64,000 bases of DNA from IMG/VR virus record IMGVR_UViG_3300033069_001940, positions 1-64,000 of that record, one strand, 5' to 3'. The notes below the pieces were generated by a model. The model saw nothing but the letters and a program-made list of their open reading frames with translations, made no database searches and was not told the origin of the DNA. Positions 1 through 39,587 of the stretch are shown piece by piece (position 1 is the first letter of the stretch; each line of letters opens with the position of its first letter). The stretch comes from a virus. Lineage: Duplodnaviria; Caudoviricetes. The translations under genes were made by a program, and so were the position numbers.

Positions 1-1713
1 CAATATGCTGATGTTAATGTAGATAATTGTAAATTTGTTAATTGCTATGGAACAAGCTTTTTAACTTCTGAGTATCAAGCAATTGATAATTCATTATTAT
101 CTGCTGGAGATTTTACTGATTATATTAAAATAATCGGGTCTAATGTTACAATAAATAATTGTATTTTTAATACTCCATCACAAGAATTTACTTATTCTGG
201 AGAGGATTATGCAGTTGTTGGTCTGTCCGTAATTCCAAGTAATAATTGTATTATAACAAATACTAATTTTATAGACGGAGCTTCACAATGTCAAATTAAA
301 GGTTTAGATAAATTAAATTATAATGGAATGGTTAAAATTGATGGTTGTAATTTTTCTAGTATAACTAGTACCACCCTATTAGATGTAGACTTTGAATTTT
401 CTAGCGCTCCAACATATGAACCAACAATTATTATTCAAAATAATAGATTTGTTCAAGATCATTATGGTGCTAATCAAGTTTTACATTCTTATAATGAAAG
501 ATATCCTGATGGATATTATGAAGGTCAGGCTGCTGTTCAAATTTATGCCCCATATTGTGGTGTTAATTTTAATAATAATTATGTTATTGGGAGATTTGAA
601 GAATGTCAAGCTCCAGCAACAGAATTTCAAAATTATTCAACTGTTTATATTGACAATATTAATACTAGTTATGATATAGTAGACTCTTATACAAAAACTA
701 ATTTATTACAATTTAATAATAATACAGTTAATTTTAATATAGGTAACGGGGGCTGGTCTAATCAGGCTAATTTAGCTTGTTTGATAACCGAAACTAATGG
801 CGCAAGAATTTGTCAAAATGCATTTAATATTTCTAGCGAATATAATTATGGAGTTTGGACTTCATTTGAAGGGTGTTTAATAATAAAAACAGCTAATTTG
901 CCATCAATTATTAGCAATAATACATTTGGTAATCTTAAAGAAGATAACTCTACTTATTGCAATTTAACAGTTGGTTATGCTCAAATTTCTCCAGCTTATG
1001 CAGTTAGTTCCCCAGCAACAGGTATGTTTGTTGATAATATTTTCTTAAAACCTATGTATGAAGATGGATATTATGGATTAGTAACTTCAGTAGGCACTGT
1101 GAAAAGTTTAATCTCAGACGCTAGTTGGACTAGCGCTTTATATAATTGGATTATTGCTAGAAATAAAAATCAACCGGAAGAATATGTTTTAAACATTGCA
1201 AATGGAACATTTTCTATTCATCAATATCATCAAAATAGAATTTTAGCTTCTGGAAGAGGTAATGCAAATGCTGTAACAGATATACATTCAGCAATATATT
1301 CTATTGATAAAAATTCTATAAGATTTAATTTTGATAATGATGATAGCCATTCTAATGCAACTTATTTTGGATGGGATATAGATCTATCTGATATACTTCC
1401 GGTTGGCTCTAGAGTTTTATCAGTAAGTTATGATTATGATATAAGCAACACATCAGCTACTAGTAGAGATCTTACGGTTCAAATATCAGGCAATGTGGAT
1501 ACGCCAGTTCCAACGACATCTCATACAGTAACTAATACTTTTACTTTGAGCAGTTCTTCTGGAACAAAATCTTATAGTAATTTTTCTAATGGATCTTATC
1601 CATATTTTATTTATCCAAGAAATAATTGCATTTTGTCAATTTATGCTGAATTATGTGATAATTCAGATTTTACTGTAGATATTTCAAACGTAACGATTAC
1701 ATTTATTCAATAA
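1..1713 (+). CDS. Tail spike/fibre-like protein with parallel beta-helix repeats (5' truncated by window edge)
   Basis: Frame 1 is open from base 1 into the listed ORF at 328. Asn/Cys-ladder strands (VDNCKF, INNCIF, IDGCNF, IQNNRF, ISNNTF) are typical of right-handed beta-helices. Beta-rich C-terminal domain; lies in the tail region. Confidence 0.6.
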   Translation, partial: QYADVNVDNCKFVNCYGTSFLTSEYQAIDNSLLSAGDFTDYIKIIGSNVTINNCIFNTPSQEFTYSGEDYAVVGLSVIPSNNCIITNTNFIDGASQCQIKGLDKLNYNGMVKIDGCNFSSITSTTLLDVDFEFSSAPTYEPTIIIQNNRFVQDHYGANQVLHSYNERYPDGYYEGQAAVQIYAPYCGVNFNNNYVIGRFEECQAPATEFQNYSTVYIDNINTSYDIVDSYTKTNLLQFNNNTVNFNIGNGGWSNQANLACLITETNGARICQNAFNISSEYNYGVWTSFEGCLIIKTANLPSIISNNTFGNLKEDNSTYCNLTVGYAQISPAYAVSSPATGMFVDNIFLKPMYEDGYYGLVTSVGTVKSLISDASWTSALYNWIIARNKNQPEEYVLNIANGTFSIHQYHQNRILASGRGNANAVTDIHSAIYSIDKNSIRFNFDNDDSHSNATYFGWDIDLSDILPVGSRVLSVSYDYDISNTSATSRDLTVQISGNVDTPVPTTSHTVTNTFTLSSSSGTKSYSNFSNGSYPYFIYPRNNCILSIYAELCDNSDFTVDISNVTITFIQ

Positions 1714-1722
1714 AGGTTATAT

Positions 1723-2127: not shown

Positions 2128-2139
2128 AATTGGAAAAAT

Positions 2140-5100
2140 ATGACAGTTTACCCTAATGAAATTGATTCAGATGCTGATATTGGTCGCGTAGACGATAATA
2201 TTGTCGAAATTGGCGGCCAAATAATTAACCAGTTACGTGATGCTGTTTTTGCTTTAGAAGCAGAATTAGGAATTGCGCCAAGCGGTTCTGCTGACTCTGT
2301 GGCAGATCGTTTAAATATATCTTTAAATCCAGATGGGACAATTAAAACTTCAGCCCTTGATGGAATTGGATTAGTTTCATTACCAATTACTAATGCTCAG
2401 GTAGGAACAAACGCTAATATATCTGAGTCAAAATTAAATCTAAATCATAGCACATCTGATTTATATACGTTAATTATTGGCGCTAAAAATCTATTAGACC
2501 AGTATGTATTAAAAACACAAGAATTAATTTCAAATTTAACTGCTCATATTGCTGGTTCATCTACATTATTGGACGGAAGCCCAGGAAAACATCTTTTAAG
2601 TCATATTTTAGTTAATCAGAATCCGGTTGACCCCCGCGATTTGAGTTATACATGGGGAGGACTAAAAGATAAGGATGGAAATGCTAGATCGGCAACTCAA
2701 GCTATGCAGGCATTAGACCAAATTAATACAGATTTGGTTAATCATGAGAATTCTACTTCTGAAGCTCATCAAGCCGCAGGTATTGTTGTTAATACTACAG
2801 AATTTATTGAAATTCCAGAAACAGCAACAGACGCACAAAAAGTATTTAATTATTTAGATCAAGCTGAAGTATTAAATATGGGTTTGCATCGTGCAGTAGA
2901 GCATGTTAATTGTATTCCTAGAACCGCTCGCTCACAGCATTTAAATCAGGACGGTTATTCTACTAATATTGTAGAAGAAACGCCTATTGTTACTTATTTA
3001 GTTTATAGCGGCGATGGTCCTAATGATAGTATTTCATCAGGAGACGACGTTATTAGTTTTAATCCGGTACTGCCATACCTATTAGATTCTCAATTTAGCA
3101 GAATTAGAGTAGGAGATATAATTAATGTCAATTATAACAATGGATTAAAGGCATCATTTCCAATAGTTTCTATTAAATATGTTCCTGGTAGCATGTGGTA
3201 TGTCAGGATTAATGGAAATAATCTTTGCGACGGCGCTGGAACAGCTACAATTAATAGGCCTTTGTTTGATGAAAATGTTTTTGGAGTTTTAGCACCAGCT
3301 TATGCCAATCCGGCTCCAACATCTTCTTATAGCAATATACTTCCAAGTTTAATTCTCGGTAATCCAAAAGCCGCGACAGCTTTGGGCATTGGTTTTGATC
3401 CAAATCAATTAGATCAAAATCATTATAAATTATATTTAGAATTTTATCCAACTGGAAATCCTAGTACAAAGAAAATTTCATTACCAGCTATTGACGTTAC
3501 TGGAAATGCCGGCGTAACTCCTGGACTTTATACCTTAGAAAGTGTTGTCAAGAGTATAAATAAAGGTTTTAGAACCATAGGATACAATTATAGATTTATT
3601 GCATTTTCGGCTGAAGGTCAGATTGGAATTATGCTATCTGATGCAATTGATAATGCCAGCTTTGCAATAATTTCTGGTCTAAATAGCGCTGGAACGCTTG
3701 TAACATCTACGTACACAAAAAATGTTATTGGCGGCAATGATATTACTACTGATGATTTTGATGCTTTAGGCTTAGGACCAAATAGAGCGAATATTGCCTC
3801 TGCCGCTTATGATATGACTCAATTTGGTAGCGAAGCTGGCGCGCAGCAAGCTACTAAAATTATCTCACCATTAGCAAAAAGACATTTTATAGTTAATGGA
3901 CGTCGTAGAGATACATTTGGTAATATGTACATGGCAAATGCTGATGGTTATTGGAGTGCAACAATTACTGATCGTATTCCAGTCGGCATTTCTAGCGTTG
4001 AAGTTGAATATACTGTAAATACTGATCTATCTCCGTCTGGATTAAAAGCCGGTAAAACTATTACCGTTCAGCCAACAGTTTCTTTTCAAGACCCACAATA
4101 TAGTGATGTTGATTATGGAAGATTTTTAATTAAAGATGTTGTTTATTCAACGCCTTGTGGCGGAAATGATGGATATACAAAAATAACTGTTATTAACGGT
4201 ATTCATGCTGCTGGTACAGGCTATACCTCATCGGCGGCTGCTGGATTGCCAGTTAAATTATATTTTTCTTATGATTCTGTTGGTTTTGATATTGAGAATC
4301 TAGTTGATCTTTCTCCTACAGCCGATCTTTATAACAGGTATCATGAAATATTTATTAACGATGAAGGTAAAACTTTTTCATATGAAAGAGCTAGAATGCC
4401 TCGTCAATCTCTAAGCGGAACATTGCTTGATACTAATAAATGGCAAATATTATCAGTCTCTCCAAAACTTAGAGGTTATCGTGGACCTGACCCATTAATA
4501 TTTAATAGATATCTTAGAGTAAAAGTTTTAAGTTATGATGCTGACTCTGGAGAATTCACCATTGAAATGGGTCAACCAAATACAATTTCAAGCGCAGTCA
4601 TGCGTCCTGGATTAACTGTCACTGGAAGAAAAAATGTTCCTGTTAGGATTTATGACGAAACAAATATTGATTTTATTGAATTAATTTTTGTTGATAATGA
4701 AAGCCCCGGAACAACAATTACGGCTGACAGGATAGTTGATATAGAAGTATTCCCATCACTTAACTATGATCAAGAATTAATGCTTCTTGCTTCTTGTGAA
4801 GTCTGTTGGCCGGCAATTTCTGGTCAAGAAGTTATTAGAAATCTTAGAGATTTAAGACAATTCGGAAGTGTTGGAGAAATTAACTTCACCCAATCAGCCA
4901 CAGAATTTTTGACAGTGGCCGATCGAGAACTACATCAGAATGGAATAATTAGAGGTTATGAATTCGATTCCGTGAGTGCCGTTAATCCTCTTGAAGCATA
5001 TTTTGATGGTGGTTCAGCTTTAGTTAATGGAAAAGTTGTAGTTAGCAATAATTGTTTTGTATCTATTCCGAATATTAGACAATTTGGTGATTCGTTAGGA

Positions 5101-7299
5101 ACAACTTATAATTGGGCGGTTTGCGTTAACGAGTCTGGAATCTTAGAGCCAATACTTATTACTACTGCAAAAGATGAATTTTTTGCCACAGTAGATGGCG
5201 TTAATAGTTATTATGTTCCATCTACTACATTCGCAGAATTAATAAATACTAGAAGAGATTTGACACCAATCTATATAGCTGCTGCTACTATAGATACAGT
5301 TTCTTCTTTATCATTAAGTGATGTTAGAAAATTTGTACATCAAAAAAGTTCAGATATTAATTTTTCTTGGTCTGATGAATTTAATTCTGCTAGTTTTGCA
5401 AATGCATCATCTATAAAAAATTGGATTAATTTTTATCAAGCGCCACAAAATATTATTAAAGTTAAAGGTTATTTTTCTGGCACATATGACCTTACTGGTT
5501 TTAATTATCCGACTTGTTTTGATGGTGACGGGGCTACATTTGAATCAACAAGCGCAACTGTTATTACAATTGGCAATAATATACATTTAAAAAATATTAA
5601 ATTTATTTATAATCCGTCTTCATCATATACAGCATCCGATAATGTTAATTTTGGAAATGGATGCATTTATGGTAGTGGTTCTCTTGATAATGTTAAGGTA
5701 ACAGATTGTAGTTTTGAATGCAGTTTGTTGACTAGTCAAAGACACCCATTTATAAATCTTGAAATGGCAACAAATCAAATTTTATCCAACGTTATAATTA
5801 ATGGAAATAAATTTAATGACGGATATGCTACAGCTAATCAAAGCGCAATAGCTATTATTAATAATAATGCTGGAGGAAGTTCTAATCCAGCATTATTATT
5901 AAATTGCATCATTTCTAATAATATATGCAATGCTTTTCAAAATATAGTAGTTACTTCACCAGCTAGTTTGGCATCTTATATTTATACTTTCGGTAGGCCA
6001 GGATTATCATGTATTAATGTAAATATAATTAATAATATTTCTGGTTCAATTGGATATGATATTTCATCTGTATTAAATCAAAACAATAGTTATGGCTCTT
6101 GTATAGGTAGTAATTTAGTTATTCAAAATAATTCTGCTAATTTTATAGGCACGCTTACAGCTACAGGTAAAAATGTTGTAGGAAACTTTATTGCGCACCC
6201 ATATGGTACTGGTAATGTTATTATTTCTGGAAATAATTGTAATTGGATTGGCACAATATCTACTGATTATTCTACAAATAATGAAAAATCATCTGTTATT
6301 ATAACAGATAACAATATTTTAGCTTATGATTATACTCATTTAACATCTAATTACGGAGCAAACGCAGTTAATAACAATATTGCAATTGGAGTGGTTTCCA
6401 CATTATCAGATATAGGTAATGCAATAATTAGTAATAATAAAATTGATAGCGGCGTTGTAAATGGAACTTCATATAATTATATGTATGGAATATTAACAAC
6501 ACAAAGTTCATATATAAATAAAAATATTATAAAAGGAGTTGGAATATCTGGAAGTGGAAGAATAATAGTTATTTCGCCATATACTGCCGGTCCTAAATAT
6601 TATACATTTAGTATATGTGAAAATCAGTTATTTAGAGGTTCTGAGGTTATTGATGATTATATTGCTTTGCCGTCATCTTCAACATACAATAATGGAATTA
6701 TAAGTCAAAATATATTTGACAGCACAACTGTGGATGGTGCTTCAAATACTGTTTTGATAACTGGAGCGGCTATATCTGGATGGGGAGTATTTTTAAATAG
6801 GAATTATCAATTTGATAAGATTTATGTTAGCACAAATAGTATTAAATTTCAATCTCCAATAACAGGAACAATGAATGTAACCGCTGATTTAAATACTTCT
6901 GGAGATACTGTGATTGCTGGAACATTAAGATATAATACATATCCACAATATAGGACATATATTTTATCCGGAATTACTGCTAGCTTAACAATTGGTTATG
7001 GTACTTCTTATAATGCTGATGTTTTTGTTTTGCCTCAATCTTCTATTGGCCAAACCATAACCATAAAAGATCCGACTGTAAATTCTGCATTATATAATCA
7101 TAATTATATTAAATTTACCAGAGATACTTCGTTAGCCACTGTTGGTAATATAGTTATAAAAAGAGAAGATGGTTCAACTATAGTAACTGCCGCCAACGGT
7201 ATCGTTCAATATTCTGTTGTATGGGCAGATTTAGCTTTTATTAATGGAAAATGGAGATGTGTGTCTTCTGATGGTTTCTCTGTTGGTGATTCTTGGTAG
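2140..7299 (+). CDS. Large tail fibre/spike protein (1719 aa) with C-terminal beta-helix
   Basis: N-terminal YPxxxD...INQLRDAVFALEAELG helical virion-attachment-type segment. Internal NGIIRG...GSALVNGKV adaptor-like segment. From about aa 1130, repeated IxxNxF/IxNN beta-helix strands. Confidence 0.65.
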   Translation: MTVYPNEIDSDADIGRVDDNIVEIGGQIINQLRDAVFALEAELGIAPSGSADSVADRLNISLNPDGTIKTSALDGIGLVSLPITNAQVGTNANISESKLNLNHSTSDLYTLIIGAKNLLDQYVLKTQELISNLTAHIAGSSTLLDGSPGKHLLSHILVNQNPVDPRDLSYTWGGLKDKDGNARSATQAMQALDQINTDLVNHENSTSEAHQAAGIVVNTTEFIEIPETATDAQKVFNYLDQAEVLNMGLHRAVEHVNCIPRTARSQHLNQDGYSTNIVEETPIVTYLVYSGDGPNDSISSGDDVISFNPVLPYLLDSQFSRIRVGDIINVNYNNGLKASFPIVSIKYVPGSMWYVRINGNNLCDGAGTATINRPLFDENVFGVLAPAYANPAPTSSYSNILPSLILGNPKAATALGIGFDPNQLDQNHYKLYLEFYPTGNPSTKKISLPAIDVTGNAGVTPGLYTLESVVKSINKGFRTIGYNYRFIAFSAEGQIGIMLSDAIDNASFAIISGLNSAGTLVTSTYTKNVIGGNDITTDDFDALGLGPNRANIASAAYDMTQFGSEAGAQQATKIISPLAKRHFIVNGRRRDTFGNMYMANADGYWSATITDRIPVGISSVEVEYTVNTDLSPSGLKAGKTITVQPTVSFQDPQYSDVDYGRFLIKDVVYSTPCGGNDGYTKITVINGIHAAGTGYTSSAAAGLPVKLYFSYDSVGFDIENLVDLSPTADLYNRYHEIFINDEGKTFSYERARMPRQSLSGTLLDTNKWQILSVSPKLRGYRGPDPLIFNRYLRVKVLSYDADSGEFTIEMGQPNTISSAVMRPGLTVTGRKNVPVRIYDETNIDFIELIFVDNESPGTTITADRIVDIEVFPSLNYDQELMLLASCEVCWPAISGQEVIRNLRDLRQFGSVGEINFTQSATEFLTVADRELHQNGIIRGYEFDSVSAVNPLEAYFDGGSALVNGKVVVSNNCFVSIPNIRQFGDSLGTTYNWAVCVNESGILEPILITTAKDEFFATVDGVNSYYVPSTTFAELINTRRDLTPIYIAAATIDTVSSLSLSDVRKFVHQKSSDINFSWSDEFNSASFANASSIKNWINFYQAPQNIIKVKGYFSGTYDLTGFNYPTCFDGDGATFESTSATVITIGNNIHLKNIKFIYNPSSSYTASDNVNFGNGCIYGSGSLDNVKVTDCSFECSLLTSQRHPFINLEMATNQILSNVIINGNKFNDGYATANQSAIAIINNNAGGSSNPALLLNCIISNNICNAFQNIVVTSPASLASYIYTFGRPGLSCINVNIINNISGSIGYDISSVLNQNNSYGSCIGSNLVIQNNSANFIGTLTATGKNVVGNFIAHPYGTGNVIISGNNCNWIGTISTDYSTNNEKSSVIITDNNILAYDYTHLTSNYGANAVNNNIAIGVVSTLSDIGNAIISNNKIDSGVVNGTSYNYMYGILTTQSSYINKNIIKGVGISGSGRIIVISPYTAGPKYYTFSICENQLFRGSEVIDDYIALPSSSTYNNGIISQNIFDSTTVDGASNTVLITGAAISGWGVFLNRNYQFDKIYVSTNSIKFQSPITGTMNVTADLNTSGDTVIAGTLRYNTYPQYRTYILSGITASLTIGYGTSYNADVFVLPQSSIGQTITIKDPTVNSALYNHNYIKFTRDTSLATVGNIVIKREDGSTIVTAANGIVQYSVVWADLAFINGKWRCVSSDGFSVGDSW

Positions 7300-7313
7300 T
7301 ATAAAGGTAAATT

Positions 7314-8111
7314 ATGGGCACTTTAAATACATTTAAAACAGACCTTTATCACCTGCATGGTTATGTGCAAAATACTTTAATTTCACATCCAAAACAGGCG
7401 ATAATTGGCGCTTTGAGAGAGTTTTTCGCCCAAGACAGTTATTACCATTACGTTAGAGATCAGTGGGGCTTTCCAAAAGTTGAAGATCAGACTAATTTAC
7501 CTTCAAACGCTGGAATGGAAGATGATTCAACGACAAGAATTTACATAGGAGAACAATATCGCGATGGTCCTATTTTTTATCCTTCAATTACTGTTAAACA
7601 TGGTGGAGCTAGATCTGTTCCGATTTCAATGAATCGTGAAAGGGATTCTGTTCAATATCAGGCAATTAAATATATAGATGGCTATGGACATGAAAAAGAA
7701 GTTAATACTCCAGCTTATTTTATTAATGCAGGCGCTTGGGAAGGTAATATTATTGTAGATATTACCGCTAGAGCTATTAGATCTAGAGATGAATTAACTG
7801 AGTTAGTTTCTTTACAATTTGTAGATTATCATCATCAACAACTACAAAATGCAGGAATTGCTATCAAATCTACTAATGTTGGCAGCCCATCCGAGTCAGA
7901 AGATAGAAATTCTAAATTATTTAAATGTTCCGTAACATTCGATATTAGAACAGAATGGAGAAGATTAACTCCTGTTGGAAATATTATTGATATGATTAAT
8001 TTTGCGGTTGAGTTTAGAAACATTTCAGATATTAATACATCTCAAGAAACAGCACCCAATTTAAAAATTAATACCTCCATAGATTTAATTAATGCTTTTC
8101 AAAATCTATAG
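7314..8111 (+). CDS. Putative tail completion/terminator (neck) protein
   Basis: 265 aa immediately upstream of the sheath. YPSITV strand, IxVDIxARxxxxRDELxxxV helix and terminal strand pattern resemble tail terminator folds. Mainly a positional call. Confidence 0.45.
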   Translation: MGTLNTFKTDLYHLHGYVQNTLISHPKQAIIGALREFFAQDSYYHYVRDQWGFPKVEDQTNLPSNAGMEDDSTTRIYIGEQYRDGPIFYPSITVKHGGARSVPISMNRERDSVQYQAIKYIDGYGHEKEVNTPAYFINAGAWEGNIIVDITARAIRSRDELTELVSLQFVDYHHQQLQNAGIAIKSTNVGSPSESEDRNSKLFKCSVTFDIRTEWRRLTPVGNIIDMINFAVEFRNISDINTSQETAPNLKINTSIDLINAFQNL

Positions 8112-8216
8112 CAATATTTAGAGATTTTGATATTAAGAGTTTATTTTTAAAAGTAAATTGGTAATATTACCATATCTGATCGAGGTTTTAGAAACCAAAA
8201 GTTTTAGAGGAAAATA

Positions 8217-10661
8217 ATGGCAAATATCAAAGGTGCATCAAATCCGCTTCCAGGCGCTTATTCAGATGTATTTACTCAATCTAAAGGGCTTAGCCTTCCA
8301 GGCGGAACAAGAATTTCAGTTCTCGTTGGAGAGGGTTCGCGCTCAGAACGACTCGTAGTATCAGCTTTGGGCGCTGGTAAAGATGGTTTTAATAAAGAAT
8401 ACACTTCTACCAACGGATCTGACGGTAGGCACTTTCAAGTTGCTTATCCTCCAATGATTTCTAATAGAACGACCGTTTATAAAAACGGATTGCCTTTAGT
8501 TGGTTTAGAGAAGGCTTTTGATTCAAATTCTGGTAGCTTTAGTTCTAAATATGATTATCGCGTAGATATAACTACGGGTCATATTGAATTACAAACAGCT
8601 TCTTTAGTTGATCAAAATGGTTCATATTTTACCGCTAGTTCTGCTAATCAAGGAACAGGTACGATTGCTGGTTTGACATTAGTTGATACTAATGCTCCAA
8701 CAGAAACTTGGACTATTCGTTGTTCAACTACCAGAAAAGATGGCAATGGAGATCCAATAGACGGATATGCTAAATTTATCGCTCAAGGTAGTGTAAGCGG
8801 TATTTTATTAGACGGTTATGGAAATCAAATTACTTGGCAATCAGATGACCAAATTATAAGCAACGGAATAATTAGTTTTGCTTTAAGCGAAGGTCTTGAG
8901 CCTTTCCATGAGGGAGATCGTTTTACGGTTAAAGTTAAGAGCGGAGCTTTATCAAAAGGTGATTCATTAACTGTTTCATATATTTCTGAATCAGATTTAA
9001 ATGATCCAGAATTCTTTACTGATCTGGACCTTCTACATCAAAAACATGGTATGCCGAGCACAACCAATCGTTTAAGTTTAGGTGCTCAGCTTGCGTTTGC
9101 AAGCTCTCCTCCTGGAATTTATGCATGCCAAGCGGCTCCGTCAATTCCACGAAGAGTTTCCTATCCTCTTCAAACATCGGCAACTGGTGGCGCCACATTA
9201 GATGATTTAAGTTTTTATCTACCATTAGGAGTTGTTCCTGATGTAGATTCAAATATTAACTTTTTCATTACAGACCCAGTAACTAAAGTTGAGACACAAA
9301 TTTTACCAAATAAAGTAGATTTTTACGACGCTTCTTATACTAGCTCTCCTGGCGGTTTCTGTTTTGGAGTACATGCGTATTCTTATACAGTAGTTTTGGA
9401 AGATTCTGTTGTTAAACAGGCTGAAGATGGCGTAATAACATCTATTGGACCAAGCTCAGCCACGCTTTCAAGCCAATTAGTTAATTTTGATATTAGCGAT
9501 GAAGGCAAAACACTAGTTATTCCTGCTGGTTATACTAATGCCGGAACTTATACTATTTCAGATGTTACAGACGGAGTAGCCACTATTACTGGCGGTTCTT
9601 TTACTGATGCAACAGATATTGAATTTCACGTTGTTGATGCAGATGCACAAAGCGCTGTTGTTCTTTTAACAGATGATTTAGCTTTAGGCGCTGGTCAATC
9701 TCTTAGAGTTACAGTTGTAGATCAAAAAGATGCTGATTTTTATGATGCTAATTGGCAGAATGCTTTGGAAGCCTTGGAAGCGATTGAATGTGATATCGTA
9801 GTTCCACTTCCATCACAAACTATTAGTTCGATTTTTGGAACAACTGTTGCTCATTGTAATTCAATGAGTTCAATTGAAAATCGTAAAGAAAGAATTCCTT
9901 TTATTGGTGCTATTCAAGGATTAACTCCGGATAATGTTACTGGAGTTAAAGCTGCGGCAGTTGAAGATTTAGGAGTTCTAGAAGGTATTCAGGGAGATTC
10001 AGTTTCAGAGATTTTGGCCGGAAACGTTGAAGACTTAACAAATTATGGCGTTCCAAATTCTTTTGGAAATACATTTAGATGCGTTTATGGTTATCCAGAT
10101 GAAATTGTTGTTCAAGTTGGAGCGGATAGAACTAAAGTTAATGGATTCTTTGCAATGGCTGCTGTAGCTGGATATTGCTCTAGCAATCCAAACATTGAAG
10201 TTCCTCTTACCAATAAGGTAATTCCTGGCTTTACCATTCTTCGTGATAAACTTTATCGTCCTGCTATTCTTAAAAATCTTACTGCGGCCGGTATCTTTGT
10301 TCTTCAACCAGCAGTCGGCGGTGGTAAAGTTGTTTGGTCTAAGACTACAACGCAATCAGGTTATCCAGAAGAAGAAGAATTAAGCATTGTTTTTATTAGA
10401 GATAGAATTGCTAAATCAATTCGTCAAGCAATGGAGGGTTTTGCTGGAAATGCGGAATCTCCAACAACTCAAGGAACTATTATGGCTAGAGCCATGAGTG
10501 CCCTTCAAAGTTTCGTTGGGCAAAACTGGATTACAGCATTTGCTGATCTTCGAGTTTATCGTGACTCAGTAGACCCAAGACAATGGAATATCAGTGTAGC
10601 GGTTCAACCTACATACCCGATAAACTGGATCTATATCCGTATCGGTCTTGGAGTTCTTTAA
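8217..10661 (+). CDS. Contractile tail sheath protein with large inserted domains
   Basis: N-terminal PGAYS motif. Core ALEALEA..DIVVPL..HC..MS...RKER. C-terminal ELSIVFIRDRIAKSIR and WNISVAVQPTYPINWIYI sheath signature. SD GAGG. Confidence 0.93.
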   Translation: MANIKGASNPLPGAYSDVFTQSKGLSLPGGTRISVLVGEGSRSERLVVSALGAGKDGFNKEYTSTNGSDGRHFQVAYPPMISNRTTVYKNGLPLVGLEKAFDSNSGSFSSKYDYRVDITTGHIELQTASLVDQNGSYFTASSANQGTGTIAGLTLVDTNAPTETWTIRCSTTRKDGNGDPIDGYAKFIAQGSVSGILLDGYGNQITWQSDDQIISNGIISFALSEGLEPFHEGDRFTVKVKSGALSKGDSLTVSYISESDLNDPEFFTDLDLLHQKHGMPSTTNRLSLGAQLAFASSPPGIYACQAAPSIPRRVSYPLQTSATGGATLDDLSFYLPLGVVPDVDSNINFFITDPVTKVETQILPNKVDFYDASYTSSPGGFCFGVHAYSYTVVLEDSVVKQAEDGVITSIGPSSATLSSQLVNFDISDEGKTLVIPAGYTNAGTYTISDVTDGVATITGGSFTDATDIEFHVVDADAQSAVVLLTDDLALGAGQSLRVTVVDQKDADFYDANWQNALEALEAIECDIVVPLPSQTISSIFGTTVAHCNSMSSIENRKERIPFIGAIQGLTPDNVTGVKAAAVEDLGVLEGIQGDSVSEILAGNVEDLTNYGVPNSFGNTFRCVYGYPDEIVVQVGADRTKVNGFFAMAAVAGYCSSNPNIEVPLTNKVIPGFTILRDKLYRPAILKNLTAAGIFVLQPAVGGGKVVWSKTTTQSGYPEEEELSIVFIRDRIAKSIRQAMEGFAGNAESPTTQGTIMARAMSALQSFVGQNWITAFADLRVYRDSVDPRQWNISVAVQPTYPINWIYIRIGLGVL

Positions 10662-29700: not shown

Positions 29701-30009
29701 AATACTAATCCGGTATTAGTTGATGCCACATTAGCAATAGTTATATCTGAAGATTTATCCGACTCAGAAGCATTAATAATTCAAAATGTTATTAATGCTG
29801 TTACTACGAATGTAACAAGCGATAAACTTGGATTAACAGTAGATGCTTCCGATCTTATTAACATAGCTTACTCGGTATCAGGAGTAGATCGTGCTAGAAT
29901 TGTTAAGTTTAACAAATCTGGAAATAATGGTTCAGTCTTAAGTATTTCTGCTAAGAAAAATCAGTATTTAGTAGCTAATAACATTAATGTTTATAAAGAA
30001 AAAAGATAG
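26764..30009 (+). CDS. Baseplate J / gp6-like wedge protein with large insertion
   Basis: PGTVVRD, GSDLDKLA.NW..TR, IPAG, EATAIGAQGNI, EDDNTFRNR, GTATGY and GKVD motifs. C-terminal ASDLI...YSVSGVD. Confidence 0.88.
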   Translation: MAKIRSFNELVLNSIAFYSIAQPDLDTKPGTVVRDVFIDGPATQVAAGYDELNSVSVLQSLRTAVGSDLDKLALNWDATRRGGSKAANICVMTFNSLNNDFLIPAGKIIGAKNGSTFIVKNNYTVSSISGSFYKAVAAKYASDLSFLNITDQYAVEILIEATAIGAQGNISKYSLNKVGISGINNVFNAIPFSNGKFAEDDNTFRNRVLAIFSGSNTGTATGYENAAKTDSAVIDAITIQPGDTLMTRDGTVVETDSSGNDVIVSEGSGGKVDLLVFGSRLQEVLDGFIYHDKSNTKDPTHPLNDFVLGQIRGDENKTITRKRIDNMTSGTLPNQPVNNIISVVGSISGANFKLKTTDEFGRVSGNYELIRDTGSYQGSPWSLDRVHWISNKISGYQEDKTKNSFNNQDTTNFSDVLSVNSVTQDISITNENSQVLSSDRSIIQLSHYPCNSVTRVFNVTTGERYTIVSQNVDGTGTNNLTGRIRIGGKSLPSISDILQVDYTWVFSYDRYFDFDNKEISYNSRSSGDTIDWGYSNLIKREQSILIASGDLLKVSLSHPISSVINCNVFDQKSSSISLISSRLSVVVDKTVNNVVSITRDSDGRELWDTNTQDGAFSGMTIYLPSDISNTATVGQSVTVIYNAVDVFGSTGNFNESQLNITSTSPASAGKLVECTYIANVSNLLPSTLLSSLPAVRSNNKFVVKNNTIGMQPTSHIFDNSNIYSNLRIAPSNLGLQINGTISPGNLAITGTTFHGIFDAVLTVSNTGLRHNLSSLIKSFLGISSVSSIPSNVKISRVCKVELVTADDNNNVLSSDYTYDLKWYSIKDNSFCKNESIQNNSMNYFEFELPFTSDNYQNSPSIGDKIRVSFYISIGTEASPDVEILSFTKSGTLYTNKKFALVKSISISSGFSSNSSGSATLTVFSMNQPLAKSRYKSSYEYSAPKENERISISYNYDKLVSDVTQAIEVVRPINSDVLVKNTNPVLVDATLAIVISEDLSDSEALIIQNVINAVTTNVTSDKLGLTVDASDLINIAYSVSGVDRARIVKFNKSGNNGSVLSISAKKNQYLVANNINVYKEKR

Positions 30010-33000: not shown

Positions 33001-36000
33001 TATTCAAATAGTATTTTGGTTAATGGAGATGTTCAAATTGTTCCAGGAAAATTTGATTATGGAATGTTGATTGAAAAAGATGGTCAAAATATTGTTTTTC
33101 CAGTTTCGGGTAATTTAAAATTAGAAGAAGGAACCTTAGAAACATTTGTAACGCCTCAGTGGTTTGGTTTGGATAATGACGCGACTCTAACATTTAAATT
33201 ATTTTCTGATGAGTCTGTGTTAGATTCTGATAAAATTTATATTGGTTCAAAAGGATACCATCCAACATATGATATTACTAATTCATTTTCTTTAAATAAA
33301 AATGATTTAGAAAGTCCAAAAGGAATACCATATCAAATTAGCGATACATATTCAAATGGTATATTTATTTATTTTGATGAAGATAATAAAGTGTGGAAAT
33401 TATTAGCAAAAGATTCATCAAATAAATCATATACTGGAAATATTATTTCATCTGGGGAAATTTATAATGCCAAGTTAATTCCTGGTCTAGCTGATATTAG
33501 TGATTATATAAGAAGTGGATTAAAAGAGATTAATTTTAAATTAAATATTGATAACTATGATTTTATGTATCCAGACGGATATGCCGACGGTTATGCAGAC
33601 GGATACGTTGATGGATATGGTTATGTAGATGGGTATACAGATGGTTACGTTCAAGGATTTTCTTTCGACGGTCTACAATTTATGGCGGACGAAGAGCATT
33701 ATTTATTTGATTTTGGAGATTCAGATAAAAATAGATTTTCAATATTTAAAGATGGAAGTGGGTATTTAAATTTTCTTGTAAAAGATAAATTAGGTAATAA
33801 TAGAAGAGTAAGTACGGATATTTCTAATTGGAAGTCGGGGCAAACTCATCATATTGCAGCTTCATGGAAAATAGATACTTTTGATGAAAAAGATGAAATG
33901 CATTTATTTGTAGATGGTTTTGAGGTTCCAAATATAATTAAATATGGCGGTAGGCCCGAGACTTATATTGATGAAAAATTTAGATCAGTTAAATCAGAAA
34001 CAATTTTAGGTTCTTTAAGTAAAACAATATTATTTGGCGCCGATCTTCATACGCAGGCTGGTAGTCCGATTGTTTATTCTGACTCTATTGATTTTGATAG
34101 TAAAGGAATAATTCCTGGTGATTCAATAAAAATAATAGAATCTGGGTTTAATGATTATACAATTATTAGCGTTTTGGGAAATTATCTTACACTTGACGCT
34201 AATATGCCTGCCTCATTAACTGATGCAAGATTTTCGGTCAATGAATTTAGTTCAGTAGTTTCTAGTGAAATAAACCTTTACAGTAATATCGCTGTCTATC
34301 TTTTAAGATCTGGAGAAGAAATTGAATTACCAGGAGTTAGAGCCCAATTTCCTGGTTATGAAATTAGTAAGAACATGTTAAATCAAGATGTTCTTACTAT
34401 AATTGGTAATGCGGAAATTGGTGATAAAATAGTTATTAGAACTTTTGGTATCAATCATAAGCGTTGTCGAGATAGACAATTTATCTGGGGCAACTACTCT
34501 AGTATTTTTAAAACATCATTACCATCTCCAATTAATTTAGATGAAGTTAGTATTAAAAAAATATTATTACCAATGACTAATTTGAGTTTAGAAAATTCGT
34601 CATACGTTGGACCTGCTTTGGTATCCTTGAATATACAAACGTCACAACCTTCAAATATTACAGAAGGAAGAACTTTAGCGGTTAGAGTTAATGGTAACAA
34701 TGTTGATTTTTCAACCCCCACACAAATTACTATTAACGGAGTTACTAATGGGGTTGCTACATCAGAAGTTTTATCATTTACTAGTGCTGGAACACAATAT
34801 ACAACCAATAAGTTTCTTAATATTAGTGGCGTAGATGCTACAACATATACTATTGCTACAAATAAGCCAGGAATTTCATTTGAAATTTCTGAAAAATATT
34901 CTATTACATATTCTGAAGGTAATGAAAATTATCCGGTAATTAGATTTAGTTACAAAACGCAAACCGGCAAATCTCTTTCTGGATCAGGTTTAGATGTCGT
35001 AACCGATCAATCTGGTTATTTTCTTAATTCAAACGTTGGACAAAAATTAGTAATTAAAACACCTTTATCTGTGGCTGGAACTTATTTAATAACAGAAAAA
35101 ATTAATGATACCTCTATTAGATTAGACCCTCCTCCACCTACTAATTTTAGTGGTGGAACATATGATATTTTTAATGTTAGTTTGGGAAGGTCTGGATTTC
35201 AAAATGGTTTTTGGACATTAGAAACTGCTGGACAGGTTAATGTTCCATATCTTTTAACAGAAGGATTTTATGAGTTTGATTATTCGGTCTATTTAACTAT
35301 TCCATTCGATCCTATTTCAAAAGGCGATGTTTATATAGGGTCAGACATATTCGGTAAAAAACAGGCTAAGGTAGTATTTGATGAATTTATTATTTGGTCA
35401 AAGCAATTGACCGACACAAGGGTTGGAGAAACAATTCAAGATAACGAATTTTCAATAACATCAAATGCATTAAGAATAATTCCGCAAGAAAAAAACAAGA
35501 ATATTTTAGTTCTTTTAGATTTTAATAAAGTACCATTAATAAATAATTCAGATTATTGGATTTCATCAACTAGCGAATATCTTCAATCAGATTCAAGTGT
35601 TAATAGTAATTTTGAAAAAAGCCTTTTAATTACTGAAAAACCTTTTGTTTTGGATAATTTTGGTTTATTGCAAACTAACTCCGAAGGAACAATAGAATTC
35701 TGGGTTAGTCCGAAATACGATACATATAATGACCCGACTGTTAGATTTTATTTTGATGCCACCTCTGCTGTTTATGAAGATGTAACATCTTCAACAACAT
35801 CATCTATTGTTTTAACTGGTAAAGCTAATAAAATAGTTGGAATATATTTGCAAAAAGATATTAATAATCTGAATAATCTAACTGATGGTTCAATTTTATC
35901 CAATGATGGGCAGACAATTAGGTTAAGCCGCCCACTACCTTATCAGCAAACTCCAGTTAGAGTATATTATATACCAAATGGCATATCACAAGGAAGAATT

Positions 36001-36687: not shown

Positions 36688-36689
36688 AT

Positions 36690-39587
36690 ATGAAGAAAAA
36701 AGAAATTTCAATACCAGAAACATTATGGCAAAATTCAATGCGCGTACAGCAATCAGATTTGATTGCTCAACAAAATCACAGCAATCAAGTAGATTCTGCG
36801 ATAGTAAATAATCATTTTGGTTCTGGTGTTTTATTAGAAGGCTTGAATAAAACGATTATTTTTGATTCTGATAATCTTACTACAGACCAAACTAACTTAA
36901 AAAATATTAATTCATTTGATGGTGTTGGGATTACCCCTCATAATCAACCTTCGGATTTAACATATGGTAATCAGTTAGAGGTTATTTTAACTGATTCAAA
37001 TGTTTTTGGAAGATTATCAGTTAAGGTAGCGATCATCGGATTAGATTTTAATGGCAATCTGCAAAGTGATACTTTTTATTTTTTTGAAAATGAAAAGCAG
37101 ATTACATCCAAACATTATACCAAGGTCTTAAGTATTTTATTTTATGATTTTTTTGGAAATTTTATTTCTAGAAATCTTGGTGGAAGAATTTTAATTCAGG
37201 AAACAAATTCATTACAAATTTCCAAAGAATCTGTAATGATTGCTCAGGATACTTATCCATCTTTATTTTGGAGAGATTTTAAACCAAATACCACAACATC
37301 AAATTTATCAAATATCTTACAAACAGCAATAGGCCCAGAATATAATGTTGATGGTTTAAATATTAATATAAGCGGAATAACTTCCAAGCAATTAGAGCCA
37401 GACGACGTTGTTTCGCAGGTTGGACAAAAGTTTTTAGCAAAAACTAATAATATTCAAAAAATAACATTGCTTTTAGGAGTTGTAGCTGACGGTTCTGTAT
37501 TTGATTGGTCAGGTGATTTGGTTGTTAGTATATATCCATTACAAACAGACGTCGTTAATCCTGGCGATATTCTACCAGGATTGCCAATTGAATTTACTCC
37601 ATCTAATCAACCTTTAGTTCAAATTAGTTATAGTCAACAAACATTAAAAGAAATTGGATATCAATTAAATGATGTACTTCAACCAATTGATTTTGTATTT
37701 TCTGGAACAAAAGTTGGAAAATCTGGCGGAATAGTTCCAGATAAATATTATGTGGTAACTGTAAAACGCTCAGGTTCTGCTGATACTGGCACAATTTTAT
37801 TAGGAGCAGGTTTAAGCTCATCATCTGATTATAGAGTTACACTTTACAATAGCGTGTGGGTTGATATTCCAGAAGAATCATTATGGTTCCAAGTCTGGAC
37901 CGATGCTGCTAAAGTATCAGACGGAATGGGATATGATAATGGTATTGGTATTAGCATTCCTAAAACAAAATTAGATCCAAAAACTGGATCCATTATTGAT
38001 AACGAAGAAAAATATTATTCAATTTTTTCTACATCAGAAAACACTTTAAATACAGCTATTATACAGGCGGTTGAAGAAGATTTTCTAGTTTCTCAAAATG
38101 AAAGAACGGGATCAAAAACATTTATTAGAAAAAGAATGGTCCCATCGTTAAATTTTGTTAGTTCTTCTAAGCTTAATGAGTTAAAAAATGAATATTTACC
38201 ATTAATAGTGGGTGCTGCCCAAGATTTTAATCCAAAAAAGAATTTGACTTTAACTAAAGTTCAAACATATCCTGGATTAGGACTTAATGATGCATTTATC
38301 ATTATTAATCCTGACTCTGACTTATTATCATTTAATTTGGTCGGAAGCAAACTAAAACCAAATGTTCTTAATACTAATGAATATAGAATATTTAAACAAA
38401 CTCTATATACTAATTATTATGGAGACGTTAATGGCGATGGTATAATTGATAATTTAGATGTAATTAGAGCTACGGAATTATTAGGATATTCTTTATCAAG
38501 CCCTGTAACACAGCAAAAGATTTTAGACGGTGAAGTTACCACTTTAGAAATTTTAAGAGCAGATGTGGATGGCGATGGAACAGTAACATCAACAGATATA
38601 GACTTAATTACACAATATGTTAATAAAGAAATTTCTGGGTTCTCTGCTGGAACTTATTTTAAACACTTGTTATTAAAAGTACAACAAAGCGTTGGTCGTT
38701 ATGATTATTATTATGATTGTACTAATGGAAGAATAAGATTAGATGGAGTTACTAGTCAAAATATTATTTCGGTAGGTAGCGTCAGTGAGTCAACCGCAAT
38801 ATTAGACGGGTACATGTTTGATCAATCAATAGAGTCTGACCCAGCTTATTCAACTACATCATTTGTTGATGTAACATATGAAATATTACCACAATTATTT
38901 TGGCAGTCTTATTTATTCTGTGTTAATGATGATGTTAGATTAGTACCATCTTCATTTATAAATGAAAATGCAATAGTACCGTATACCGACCCCAACATTT
39001 CTTTGTCTGAGGATAAATCAAAATCTACACCAACAGTTGATACTGGAAGAAATGATGTATTTTTCCCAGGCCATATTTATCTTAATAATGGCCAATTACT
39101 TAATAAAGATGGCACTTATTACAAAATAGATTTTGAAATTGGAAACATTACTTTAGAATTACCAATTCAAGCTTTAATCGAATCTAATATTAATATTTTT
39201 GAAAAATTTATTTGCGAATATAATAACACTGGATTAACTGCGGCTAAATACAAAGCAATGAAATATGCTGATGGAAGTTTTGTTCAGCCAAATGATTTAG
39301 CATATAATAGAATAAGATTTGCAGCGGCGATTCAGAGTATTGCAAAAAATTCTGATGGTTATTCTGTCGATGATGGTTATGGAATAATTTTAGACGATAT
39401 ATTCGGGGTTTTAATAGATCATTCAACCGGCATTTTAACTTTAAATGTTCAGAATCTGTCGATAGATCCTATTTATTTAACTTTGATTACAAAAATTCAA
39501 ATTACCGTTTATCTTAAGAAAGGCAGTTGGAACAATACTCCTATTGTTGTTAATGCTTCTGAAATAGCGGGTTTAATTTCTTCGTAA
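36690..39587 (+). CDS. Baseplate/tail-associated protein containing a type I dockerin-like domain
   Basis: N-terminal W.N..RV...DL..QQ......GSGVL attachment-type motif. Duplicated Ca-binding repeats GDVNGDGIIDNLD and ADVDGDGTVTSTD at about 38421-38620. Confidence 0.65.
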   Translation: MKKKEISIPETLWQNSMRVQQSDLIAQQNHSNQVDSAIVNNHFGSGVLLEGLNKTIIFDSDNLTTDQTNLKNINSFDGVGITPHNQPSDLTYGNQLEVILTDSNVFGRLSVKVAIIGLDFNGNLQSDTFYFFENEKQITSKHYTKVLSILFYDFFGNFISRNLGGRILIQETNSLQISKESVMIAQDTYPSLFWRDFKPNTTTSNLSNILQTAIGPEYNVDGLNINISGITSKQLEPDDVVSQVGQKFLAKTNNIQKITLLLGVVADGSVFDWSGDLVVSIYPLQTDVVNPGDILPGLPIEFTPSNQPLVQISYSQQTLKEIGYQLNDVLQPIDFVFSGTKVGKSGGIVPDKYYVVTVKRSGSADTGTILLGAGLSSSSDYRVTLYNSVWVDIPEESLWFQVWTDAAKVSDGMGYDNGIGISIPKTKLDPKTGSIIDNEEKYYSIFSTSENTLNTAIIQAVEEDFLVSQNERTGSKTFIRKRMVPSLNFVSSSKLNELKNEYLPLIVGAAQDFNPKKNLTLTKVQTYPGLGLNDAFIIINPDSDLLSFNLVGSKLKPNVLNTNEYRIFKQTLYTNYYGDVNGDGIIDNLDVIRATELLGYSLSSPVTQQKILDGEVTTLEILRADVDGDGTVTSTDIDLITQYVNKEISGFSAGTYFKHLLLKVQQSVGRYDYYYDCTNGRIRLDGVTSQNIISVGSVSESTAILDGYMFDQSIESDPAYSTTSFVDVTYEILPQLFWQSYLFCVNDDVRLVPSSFINENAIVPYTDPNISLSEDKSKSTPTVDTGRNDVFFPGHIYLNNGQLLNKDGTYYKIDFEIGNITLELPIQALIESNINIFEKFICEYNNTGLTAAKYKAMKYADGSFVQPNDLAYNRIRFAAAIQSIAKNSDGYSVDDGYGIILDDIFGVLIDHSTGILTLNVQNLSIDPIYLTLITKIQITVYLKKGSWNNTPIVVNASEIAGLISS

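What the first reader, a model, noticed from the sequence alone, without database searches (positions are those of the whole stretch)
508..39380. Asp-Gly-Tyr (DGY) tripeptide enriched across virion proteins: possible modification sequon
Seen, counted by eye: isolated DGY codons start at about 508, 1063, 2950, 3943, 4168, 5818, 7677, 8760, 8811, 21884, 38805, 39354 and 39372 (13 sites in 6 structural genes), plus 6 tandem copies at 33574-33648 in a seventh. I find only one DGY in the non-structural ORFs from 39590 on (about 45159). A rough composition estimate gives about 3-4 expected in the structural region. Both sheath copies lie in the inserted, presumably outward-facing domain. Known: Tyr O-glycosylation occurs on some bacterial S-layer proteins. 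Inference: DGY is a recognition tag, either the acceptor site for the neighbouring GTs, a kinase site, or a docking site for a decoration protein.
Basis: partly seen in the sequence, partly recalled or inferred. Interest (0 to 1): 0.85.

Follow-up and report, generated by a model that had tools for sequence, protein, structure and literature searches.

The report
DGY tag on huge-phage virion proteins
The outer virion proteins of this uncultured huge phage and all its relatives carry the tripeptide Asp-Gly-Tyr about 5 to 16 times more often than chance; it behaves like an undescribed surface tag, most plausibly a tyrosine sugar-attachment site for a conserved phage glycosyltransferase, though no modification has been shown.

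Summary
There are 13 isolated DGY sites plus a 6-copy array in seven structural ORFs (1-39587), against 2.4 expected. DGY is the most enriched of all 8000 tripeptides (family-wise 3/400 shuffles). The signal is at protein level: 19 of the 21 GAYGGNTAY matches on the two strands of 1-39587 lie in the coding frame.

It holds across the clade:
- 519 vs 60 expected around the sheath gene in 77 relatives.
- 848 vs 54 in the fibre genes upstream of a conserved GT4 gene in 77 loci, but 26 vs 32 in the sugar genes downstream.
- 69 vs 6.2 in the virion modules of a complete 459-kb relative, and 15 vs 17 in the rest of that genome.

D, G and Y are each specific: DGF, NGY and EGY are not enriched. Sites turn over: 17 alignment columns in the sheath, and arrays of 2-6 copies. 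Tube and tape-measure proteins have none. Four unrelated myoviruses show only about 2-fold.

The best reading is an acceptor sequon (Tyr-O) for the soluble glycosylation cluster that starts 2 nt after the last fibre gene. Its GT4 (39590-40684) is the conserved candidate enzyme. This is inferred, not shown, because I found no relative lacking GT4 to use as a contrast.

This scan has noted the same tag on other genomes (43 notes in at least 26 genomes). I found no paper describing it.

The parts
508..516 (+). DGY site in ORF 328-1713 (461 aa, variable virion-module protein)
   Evidence: a second site lies at 1063-1071
1063..1071 (+). DGY site in ORF 328-1713
2140..7299 (+). 1719-aa virion protein with DGY at 2950, 3943, 4168 and 5818. 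Its homologues carry 2-11 DGY each.
   Evidence: In the AF2 model of residues 1-1000, D and G lie in coil and Y starts or precedes a strand. No known fold was found.
7314..8111 (+). 265-aa protein just upstream of the sheath, with one DGY at 7677-7685 that is conserved in 45 of 51 homologues
8217..10661 (+). Tail sheath (814 aa) with DGY at 8760-8768 and 8811-8819 in the inserted peripheral domain
   Evidence: phrog_2839; structural match to phage 812 sheath, Z 33.9; DGY columns; AF2 model
21884..21892 (+). DGY site in ORF 20549-22588 (679-aa tail/baseplate-module protein)
33574..33648 (+). Array of six DGY (spacings 4, 4, 4, 6, 4 residues) in the 2223-aa protein 30016-36687. The array is conserved in place in homologues, with 2-6 copies.
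36690..39587 (+). 965-aa distal fibre protein with DGY at 38805, 39354 and 39372. It is the last structural gene before the GT cluster.
39590..40684 (+). GT4-family glycosyltransferase and candidate tag-reading enzyme. It starts 2 nt after the fibre gene and has orthologues at the same place across the clade.
   Evidence: Pfam hits (PF13439, PF00534) just under the curated cut-offs; orthologues in 17 of 18 large relatives and in the sister-lineage records G019, G026 and G027; Atlas model is GT-B and GT1-family-like
40684..41646 (+). Conserved 320-aa protein with a GT9-like fold (lead only)
   Evidence: 33-36% identity in 5 of 5 relatives; Atlas structure match to a GT9 cluster, TM 0.63; no Pfam hit
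41643..57111 (+). Rest of the soluble glycosylation cluster: GT2-GT6 fusion, GT11, three methyltransferase-domain proteins plus a sugar C-methyltransferase, GDP-mannose 4,6-dehydratase, two epimerase/reductases, GT4, GT2 and several ORFs without Pfam hits
   Evidence: no polytopic membrane protein; content varies between relatives

Best explanation
DGY is a short surface tag that is not tied to fixed positions. It is under positive selection in the outward-facing virion proteins of a large clade of uncultured huge myoviruses: the sheath insertion domain, a 1719-aa protein, a neck-region protein, giant baseplate or fibre proteins, and head-module proteins in relatives.

The most likely mechanism is as follows. 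The tyrosine hydroxyl is the acceptor of a cytoplasmic, phage-encoded protein glycosylation system. A conserved soluble GT4 enzyme (39590-40684), encoded directly after the last fibre gene and apparently co-transcribed with the late structural genes, would recognise Asp-Gly-Tyr in exposed loops at the entry of beta strands and add the first sugar. The variable downstream enzymes (GT9-like, GT2-GT6, GT11, methyltransferases, GDP-mannose dehydratase and reductases) would then extend it into a lineage-specific glycan, probably fucosylated and methylated, that coats the virion.

Shown here: the enrichment, its specificity, its turnover and the synteny. Inferred: that the tag is modified at all, that Tyr is the acceptor, and that GT4 is the initiating enzyme.
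For: (1) Enrichment in the window: 13 clusters vs 2.36 expected, top of 8000 tripeptides.

(2) Clade-wide and independent of G+C content (23-56%):
- 519 vs 60 expected in 77 sheath-anchored loci.
- 848 vs 53.5 upstream and 26 vs 31.9 downstream of GT4 in 77 GT4-anchored loci. Every locus with at least 1000 aa upstream is enriched.
- Complete relative G001: 69 vs 6.2 in the virion modules, 15 vs 17.0 elsewhere.

(3) Each residue is specific. In G001 structural proteins DGF is 7/6.0, NGY 1/5.1 and EGY 0/4.1.

(4) Turnover resembles that of a sequon:
- DGY occupies 17 different columns in the sheath, against 0-4 for equal-composition controls.
- All 58 full-length sheaths of the close clade keep at least one DGY, and three that lost the common site gained others.
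- There are 23 DGY columns in the first 1000 residues of the 1719-aa family.
- Arrays vary from 2 to 6 copies, including perfect (DGY)6.
- Where DGY is absent the same columns hold unrelated residues, so the fold does not need it.

(5) Internal or non-virion proteins have none: tube, tape measure, chaperones and tube initiator.

(6) In two AF2 models all five sites have D and G in coil and Y at or just before the start of a strand. The sheath sites lie in the peripheral insertion.

(7) GT4 lies directly after the DGY-rich fibres in all relatives that reach that point, down to 31% identity. Some relatives have only GT4 plus about four genes and are still DGY-rich (G025).

(8) The cluster has no polytopic membrane protein. 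Genes from 2140 to 58436 are on one strand with gaps of at most about 110 nt.

(9) Sulfotransfer_3 and Pkinase families are not conserved in the clade.

(10) Four unrelated myoviruses without this GT4 show only 22 vs 10.4 in total.
Against: - No chemical evidence of any modification.
- GT4 and DGY are both traits of the whole clade, so their co-occurrence may be shared ancestry. I found no relative without GT4 to serve as a contrast.
- One sister-lineage fragment (G020) has 0 DGY in about 14,400 aa of tail proteins. Its contig ends before the GT4 position, so it neither supports nor refutes the link.
- In sister lineages that have GT4 (G019, G026, G027), DGY is largely confined to the two distal fibre proteins, with 1-2 in the sheath. 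GT4 presence therefore does not by itself predict virion-wide DGY.
- Tyr O-glycosylation by a GT4 enzyme has no precedent that I could cite.
- GT4 gives only generic GT1-family matches.
- D-G followed by a strand residue is also a common turn pattern. T4 structural genes show 10 vs 2.8.
- Non-structural phage proteins do not avoid DGY (15 vs 17).
Confidence: 0.4

Rival explanations
1. DGY is a docking or binding motif with no covalent modification. The exposed Asp and Tyr would bind a partner: a decoration or cement protein, an assembly chaperone, or a host-surface or environmental polysaccharide. Tandem arrays would add avidity.
For: It shows the same surface restriction, positional flexibility and tandem amplification. 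Asp plus an aromatic residue is a common sugar-contact pair (general knowledge). The tag occurs on many different proteins, as expected for a generic adhesive feature.
Against: Three residues are very few for a specific protein-protein interface. No conserved candidate partner was identified. This reading does not explain the invariable GT4 directly after the DGY-rich fibres.
Confidence: 0.2
2. DGY is a purely structural element: an Asp-Gly turn followed by a strand-initiating tyrosine. It would be favoured in the beta-rich peripheral domains of this lineage and spread by duplication and drift, with no reader.
For: All five modelled sites have D and G in coil and Y at or just before the start of a strand. 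Unrelated myovirus structural regions show about 2-fold enrichment, and T4 shows 10 vs 2.8. Some sites are conserved like ordinary structural residues: 45/51, 23/25 and 20/25.
Against: A turn motif should tolerate N for D, and F, W, V or I for Y, yet NGY, EGY and DGF are not enriched. Columns that lack DGY hold unrelated residues such as AGT, DAN and NAM, so the fold does not require it. Perfect (DGY)5-6 arrays and spacings of 3-6 do not fit one structural unit. Beta-rich inner tail proteins have none.
Confidence: 0.17
3. DGY is the site of another modification of Tyr or Asp: phosphorylation, sulfation, nucleotidylylation, ADP-ribosylation, or Asp-Gly isomerisation or cross-linking. The enzyme would be a host enzyme or an unrecognised phage enzyme, and the GT cluster would serve another purpose, such as host-surface or DNA glycosylation.
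For: The motif has one hydroxyl and one carboxylate. Lys is depleted next to it. Most ORFs of these huge genomes have no known function.
Against: Sulfotransfer_3 and Pkinase are not conserved in the clade. No such enzyme lies in the conserved neighbourhood, where the conserved genes are glycosyltransferases, sugar-nucleotide enzymes, a tubulin and a helicase. Placing the GT genes in the late operon fits virion modification better than DNA modification (inference).
Confidence: 0.13
4. The enrichment is chance or a by-product of composition, dipeptide bias or a DNA-level motif.
For: A first-order Markov model that includes the array raises the expectation to 6.35.
Against: The family-wise shuffle test gives 3/400 for the window alone. 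The effect is 8.6-16-fold over hundreds of kilobases of relatives with G+C from 23 to 56%. The DNA pattern is confined to the coding frame.
Confidence: 0.01

Closest known systems
Virion glycosylation of mycobacteriophages by phage-encoded glycosyltransferases (Freeman et al. 2023, Cell Host Microbe; read here only through its summary in PMC12619734)
   Same: The glycosyltransferase genes are phage-encoded. The glycosylation would be cytoplasmic and act on assembled or assembling virion proteins. The proposed role is a glycan shield.
   Different: In those phages the glycans sit at the C-termini of the capsid and tail-tube subunits. Here the tag is an internal tripeptide in loops of many outer proteins, the tube has none, tyrosine is the only hydroxyl in the motif, and no glycan has been shown.
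Sequon-directed bacterial protein glycosylation, for example the Bacteroidota general O-glycosylation motif D-(S/T)-(A/I/L/V/M/T) and the Campylobacter N-sequon D/E-X-N-X-S/T (own knowledge; see also PMC8698959, listed)
   Same: A three- to five-residue motif with an acidic residue near the acceptor. It is not tied to fixed positions and is enriched in the target class of proteins.
   Different: Those systems use lipid-linked glycans and membrane oligosaccharyltransferases acting outside the cytoplasm. This cluster has no membrane proteins. The acceptor would be Tyr, not Ser, Thr or Asn.
Tyrosine O-glycosylation of S-layer proteins in Paenibacillus alvei and thermophilic Bacillota (PMC2943079, listed; details from own knowledge)
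   Same: Tyrosine is the glycan attachment residue on a self-assembling surface protein.
   Different: The S-layer glycans are built on a lipid carrier and transferred by a polytopic O-oligosaccharyltransferase. No DGY sequon is described for them, and no such enzyme is present here.
Chlorovirus PBCV-1 capsid glycosylation by virus-encoded soluble glycosyltransferases (own knowledge; the PBCV-1 GT B736L, PDB 3oy2, is a weak profile match of the GT4, E 2e-4)
   Same: The virus carries its own soluble glycosylation machinery and non-canonical attachment sites on its structural proteins.
   Different: It is a eukaryotic virus with N-linked glycans on Asn. The relationship of the enzymes is only at the level of the GT1/GT-B family.

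Membership tests
Phage virion glycosylation system (mycobacteriophage type) | Phage-encoded glycosyltransferases next to or within the structural gene module | tested here: met
   The GT4 starts 2 nt after the last fibre gene, and 39590-57111 holds GT and sugar-enzyme genes. The same synteny holds across the clade.
Phage virion glycosylation system (mycobacteriophage type) | Glycans demonstrably attached to virion proteins | not testable with these tools
   This needs mass spectrometry or glycan staining of virions. No cultured member is known.
Phage virion glycosylation system (mycobacteriophage type) | Attachment at the C-termini of capsid and tail-tube subunits | tested here: not met
   Tube homologues have 0 DGY in 83 sequences, and the DGY sites are internal. 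The feature is as summarised in PMC12619734.
Sequon-directed protein glycosylation | A short motif, not tied to fixed positions, enriched in the target protein class and containing a possible acceptor residue | tested here: met
   Tyr provides the only hydroxyl in the motif.
Sequon-directed protein glycosylation | Membrane oligosaccharyltransferase and lipid-linked glycan assembly (flippase or polymerase) | tested here: not met
   A hydropathy scan found no polytopic membrane protein in 39590-57111, and there are no such Pfam hits.
Asx-Gly beta-turn structural motif | D and G in a turn or coil leading into a beta strand | tested here: met
   5 of 5 sites in two AF2 models.
Asx-Gly beta-turn structural motif | Interchangeability of Asn for Asp, and of other strand-forming residues for Tyr | tested here: not met
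   In G001 structural proteins NGY is 1/5.1, EGY 0/4.1 and DGF 7/6.0, against DGY 69/6.2.
Collagen-like Gly-X-Y repeat | Gly at every third residue over a long uninterrupted run | tested here: not met
   Most sites are isolated. Array spacings are 3, 4, 5 or 6 residues, and the longest perfect run is six triplets.
Contractile tail sheath protein (ORF 8217-10661) | Sheath core fold | tested here: met
   phrog_2839, E 1.7e-14. VIA-align Z 33.9, rmsd 2.5, 321 residues aligned to phage 812 sheath chain 8q1i_I.

The most novel reading that the evidence does not exclude
Asp-Gly-Tyr is the first defined sequon for phage virion glycosylation and a new tyrosine-directed, cytoplasmic protein O-glycosylation system. 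A soluble GT4 would read DGY in surface loops, and variable downstream enzymes would build lineage-specific fucosylated and methylated glycans that coat head, sheath and fibres of a widespread clade of huge environmental phages.
Probability: 0.35. Interest if true: 0.9.

Novelty: new variant of a known kind. Interest (0 to 1): 0.78.

Why it matters
If the tag is a glycosylation sequon, it would be a simple sequence rule for where a large group of uncultured huge phages decorate their particles. Surface-exposed virion proteins could then be predicted from sequence alone in genomes where almost nothing has a known family. It would also add a tyrosine-directed soluble protein glycosyltransferase to the enzyme repertoire, with possible use as a three-residue glyco-tag. 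It would extend phage glycan shields well beyond mycobacteriophages.

Tried and rejected
- DNA-level motif: rejected. The pattern is confined to the coding frame and uses mixed codons.
- Shared DGY-bearing domain: rejected at sequence level. An HMM of the sheath insertion (residues 125-270) hits only sheaths and four foreign proteins, and no other window or G001 virion protein.
- Collagen-like repeat: rejected.
- Extended motif: none found. Lys is depleted beside the tag, and Trp and Gly are enriched just after Tyr.
- Literature: no paper holds 'DGY motif', and the single paper holding DGY, phage and tail is unrelated.
- Pfam and PHROGs leave most DGY-bearing proteins unnamed.
- Foldseek found no match for residues 1-1000 of the 1719-aa protein.
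- Search for relatives with DGY-free sheaths:
  - The look-up of encoding contigs gave no usable DNA.
  - The P0011 lineage gave short contigs. Of the two longer ones, G019 has GT4 and fibre DGY, and G020 ends before the GT4 position.
  - P0031 relatives are short contigs.
  - The P0086 scan found nothing, and the G020 wedge scan found only itself.
- TubZ-anchored loci: no case of a fibre gene without a following GT4.
- The Freeman 2023 paper is not held.
- Solvent exposure of the tyrosines could not be computed, because the models' coordinates are not returned.

Full report
**What the window is.** The 64-kb window is the first half of a 125,608-bp viral contig. All large ORFs lie on the + strand and G+C is about 30%. 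Few proteins match a family. Those that do are:
- a tail sheath (8217-10661, phrog_2839);
- a tube-initiator-like protein (14678-15562);
- a baseplate protein (26308-26736);
- a gp6-like baseplate wedge (26764-30009).

From 39590 to 57111 there is a glycosylation cluster. It holds GT4, a GT2-GT6 fusion, GT11, several methyltransferases, a sugar C-methyltransferase, GDP-mannose 4,6-dehydratase, two epimerase/reductase genes, a second GT4 and a GT2. A TubZ/PhuZ-like tubulin (57108-58436) and a UvsW-like helicase follow. No cultured phage is close: the best sheath match is 26% identity. The contig is collinear with positions 279-445 kb of a complete 458,729-bp relative (G001). It is therefore a fragment of a huge phage genome that begins inside the virion module.

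**Checking the observation.** All coordinates in the finding are exact.
- The 12,905 aa of structural ORFs hold 19 DGY, against 2.36 expected from per-protein composition.
- With arrays collapsed there are 13 clusters, P = 1.3e-6.
- DGY is the most extreme of all tripeptides. Only 3 of 400 shuffles produced any tripeptide as extreme.
- The rest of the contig has 5 DGY in 26,664 aa.
- The DNA pattern GAYGGNTAY occurs 19 times in frame, once out of frame and once on the other strand, with mixed codons. The constraint is therefore on the protein.

**The signal extends across the clade.**
- *Sheath-anchored loci.* Seventy-seven IMG/VR relatives of the sheath (44-65% identity, G+C 30-56%) were fetched with 10-kb flanks. 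They hold 519 DGY against 60 expected. Other tripeptides with high ratios occur about once per locus, which marks single conserved positions. DGY occurs about seven times per locus.
- *Which proteins carry it.* The carriers are homologues of the 1719-aa protein (4.5 per protein, up to 11), the 265-aa protein (one conserved site) and the sheath (2.1 per protein). The tube, tape measure, chaperones and tube initiator have none, and the 1656-aa protein has one DGY in 57 homologues.
- *Complete relative G001.* The virion modules have 69 DGY against 6.2 expected. The other 120,945 aa have 15 against 17.0.
- *GT4-anchored loci.* In 77 loci anchored on the GT4 orthologue, the 10 kb upstream (fibre genes) hold 848 DGY against 53.5. 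The 10 kb downstream (sugar genes) hold 26 against 31.9. Every locus with at least 1000 aa upstream is enriched, down to 31% GT4 identity.

**Specificity.** In G001 structural proteins DGF is 7/6.0, NGY 1/5.1, EGY 0/4.1 and DGW 1/1.6. Asp, Gly and Tyr are therefore each required. Control regions of Eggerthella phage LE2-3, Bacillus phage G, phiKZ and T4 give 4/3.2, 3/2.3, 5/2.1 and 10/2.8. There is a generic tendency of roughly 2-fold, strongest in T4. The clade's 9-16-fold enrichment sits on top of it.

**Behaviour in evolution.**
- *Sheath family.* DGY occupies 17 different alignment columns, all between residues 67 and 459 of the window protein. Equal-composition controls occupy 0-4 columns (NGY 4, GYD 4, YDG 2, EGY 0). 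Subclades use different columns. All 58 full-length sheaths of the close clade keep at least one DGY. The three that lost the common site have gained DGY elsewhere, partly in insertions. Where DGY is absent the same columns hold unrelated triplets (AGT, GGT, DAN, NAM, DGV, DGE), so the fold does not require it.
- *1719-aa family.* The first 1000 residues show 23 DGY columns in 25 sequences. Three are widely conserved and the rest sporadic.
- *2223-aa family.* The array at 33574-33648 is conserved in place but has 2-6 copies with spacings of 3-6 residues. One relative has perfect (DGY)6 and (DGY)5 runs.
- *No shared domain.* An HMM of the sheath insertion domain finds no other virion protein, so the enrichment is not explained by one shared domain.
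- *No extended motif.* Lys is depleted next to the tag, and Trp and Gly are enriched right after Tyr.

**Structure.**
- The sheath model (pLDDT 82.6) places both DGY sites in coil just before strands, inside a beta-rich region.
- Minimal sheaths such as the R-pyocin and PVC sheaths align to only about 320 of the 814 residues, with Z of 25-29. The best match, phage 812 sheath, gives Z 33.9.
- In established sheath structures the N- and C-terminal core faces the tube and inserted domains face outward. I apply that here by inference.
- The model of residues 1-1000 of the 1719-aa protein (pLDDT 70.7) shows the same local pattern at 271, 602 and 677. It has no recognisable fold match.
- Solvent exposure itself could not be computed.

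**The neighbouring enzymes.**
- *Operon layout.* The GT4 gene starts 2 nt after the last fibre gene. Genes from 2140 to 58436 are on one strand with gaps of at most about 110 nt. This suggests late co-expression (inference).
- *No membrane machinery.* No ORF of the cluster is a polytopic membrane protein. There is thus no flippase, polymerase or oligosaccharyltransferase, and the acceptor is likely soluble.
- *Conserved core.* Across five relatives the conserved members are GT4 (46-49% identity), a 320-aa protein with a GT9-like predicted fold (lead only), GDP-mannose dehydratase and an epimerase, with the GT6 domain clearly matched in four of the five. The rest varies.
- *GT4 distribution.* GT4 orthologues are present in 17 of 18 large relatives. 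In the eighteenth, the expected position falls off the contig end.
- *Minimal clusters.* In TubZ-anchored loci many relatives have only GT4 plus about four genes between fibre and tubulin, and their fibres are still DGY-rich. No locus shows a fibre gene without a following GT4.
- *Other enzyme families.* Sulfotransfer_3 and Pkinase are not conserved in the clade.
- *Controls.* The four control phages lack a match to the GT4 profile. The tool warns that an empty answer shows nothing by itself.

**Limits of the co-occurrence argument.** Sister lineages (GT4 33-38% identical; G019, G026, G027) have GT4 at the same place. In them DGY is largely confined to the two giant distal proteins, with 1-2 in the sheath, and their homologues of the 1719-aa protein have 0-1. 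A further fragment, G020, has 0 DGY in about 14,400 aa, but it ends before both the distal fibres and the GT4 position. Some more distant sheath representatives also lack DGY, and I could not obtain their genomic context. I therefore found no relative without GT4, so the link between tag and enzyme rests on invariable synteny, not on a contrast. Earlier notes of this scan on other genomes state that the motif is missing in the few relatives lacking a neighbouring glycosyltransferase. I could not reproduce or refute that here.

**Interpretation.** The tag is real and selected, and I put that at over 0.95. It has the properties of a short recognition motif on exposed loops.
- *Tyr-O-glycosylation sequon read by the conserved soluble GT4 and extended by the variable cluster: confidence 0.4.* It accounts for the residue specificity, the restriction to outer proteins, the turnover, the arrays and the synteny.
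- *Non-covalent docking or adhesion motif: 0.2.*
- *Lineage-specific structural turn: 0.17.*
- *Another modification: 0.13.*
- *Chance or compositional artefact: excluded.*

**Novelty.** Phage virion glycosylation, tyrosine O-glycosylation and sequon-directed glycosylation are each known. A DGY tag, a tyrosine-directed cytoplasmic system and a virion-wide sequon in phages are not described in the literature I could search. This scan has already recorded the same tag on other genomes of the clade (43 notes in at least 26 genomes). My analysis was done before reading those notes and agrees with them.

Noticed in passing
window 41643-44972 and 52305-55185: The phage encodes a GT6-family domain (fused to a GT2), a GT11-family fucosyltransferase-like protein, GDP-mannose 4,6-dehydratase and two epimerase/reductase genes. 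This is the enzyme set used elsewhere to make fucosylated, ABO(H)-like glycans. GT6, GT11 and the dehydratase recur in several relatives.
   Followed up: partly
window 57108-58436: A TubZ/PhuZ-like tubulin is conserved (40-60% identity) directly after the glycosylation cluster in all relatives examined. A UvsW-like helicase (62643-64103) follows it.
   Followed up: partly
window 22599-24689: A 696-aa protein in the baseplate/tail module has six strongly hydrophobic segments between residues 81 and 235, which is unusual for a virion protein. It may be a membrane-inserting ejection protein.
   Followed up: no
window 1-64000 and the rest of the contig: The 125.6-kb contig is collinear with 279-445 kb of a complete 459-kb relative. 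It starts inside the virion module, so the head genes are missing. It also lacks a roughly 18-kb block of G001 (358-376 kb) that includes three further DGY-rich proteins at 358.2-367.7 kb.
   Followed up: partly
window 328-1713: The 461-aa ORF with two DGY sites has no BLAST match (E <= 1e-5) in five relatives that share all neighbouring genes. It is a variable member of the virion module.
   Followed up: no
window structural ORFs, DGY codons: Asp at DGY sites uses GAC in 8 of 19 cases (42%), against 17% GAC over all Asp codons of the structural ORFs.
   Followed up: no
L120 (phage T4, 73-122 kb): The T4 structural gene region has 10 DGY against 2.8 expected, as single sites in gp7, gp8, gp12, gp18, gp27 and others. 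This hints at a weaker general preference for this triplet in myovirus structural proteins.
   Followed up: partly
L204 (IMGVR_UViG_3300010883_028422), 1513-aa ORF upstream of GT4: It holds perfect tandem runs (DGY)6 and (DGY)5 within one fibre protein, the most extreme amplification of the tag seen.
   Followed up: no
L298-L300 (G025) 40328-47580, and many loci L221-L297: Many relatives have a minimal cluster of GT4 plus about four genes, ending in an epimerase-like gene, between the last fibre gene and the tubulin. The window has 18 genes there. The variable part therefore looks like lineage-specific glycan elaboration.
   Followed up: partly
G001 structural proteins (L090-L096): The near-cognate triplets EGY (0 vs 4.1 expected) and NGY (1 vs 5.1) are depleted in the virion modules. 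One reading is that single-base neighbours have been converted to DGY.
   Followed up: no
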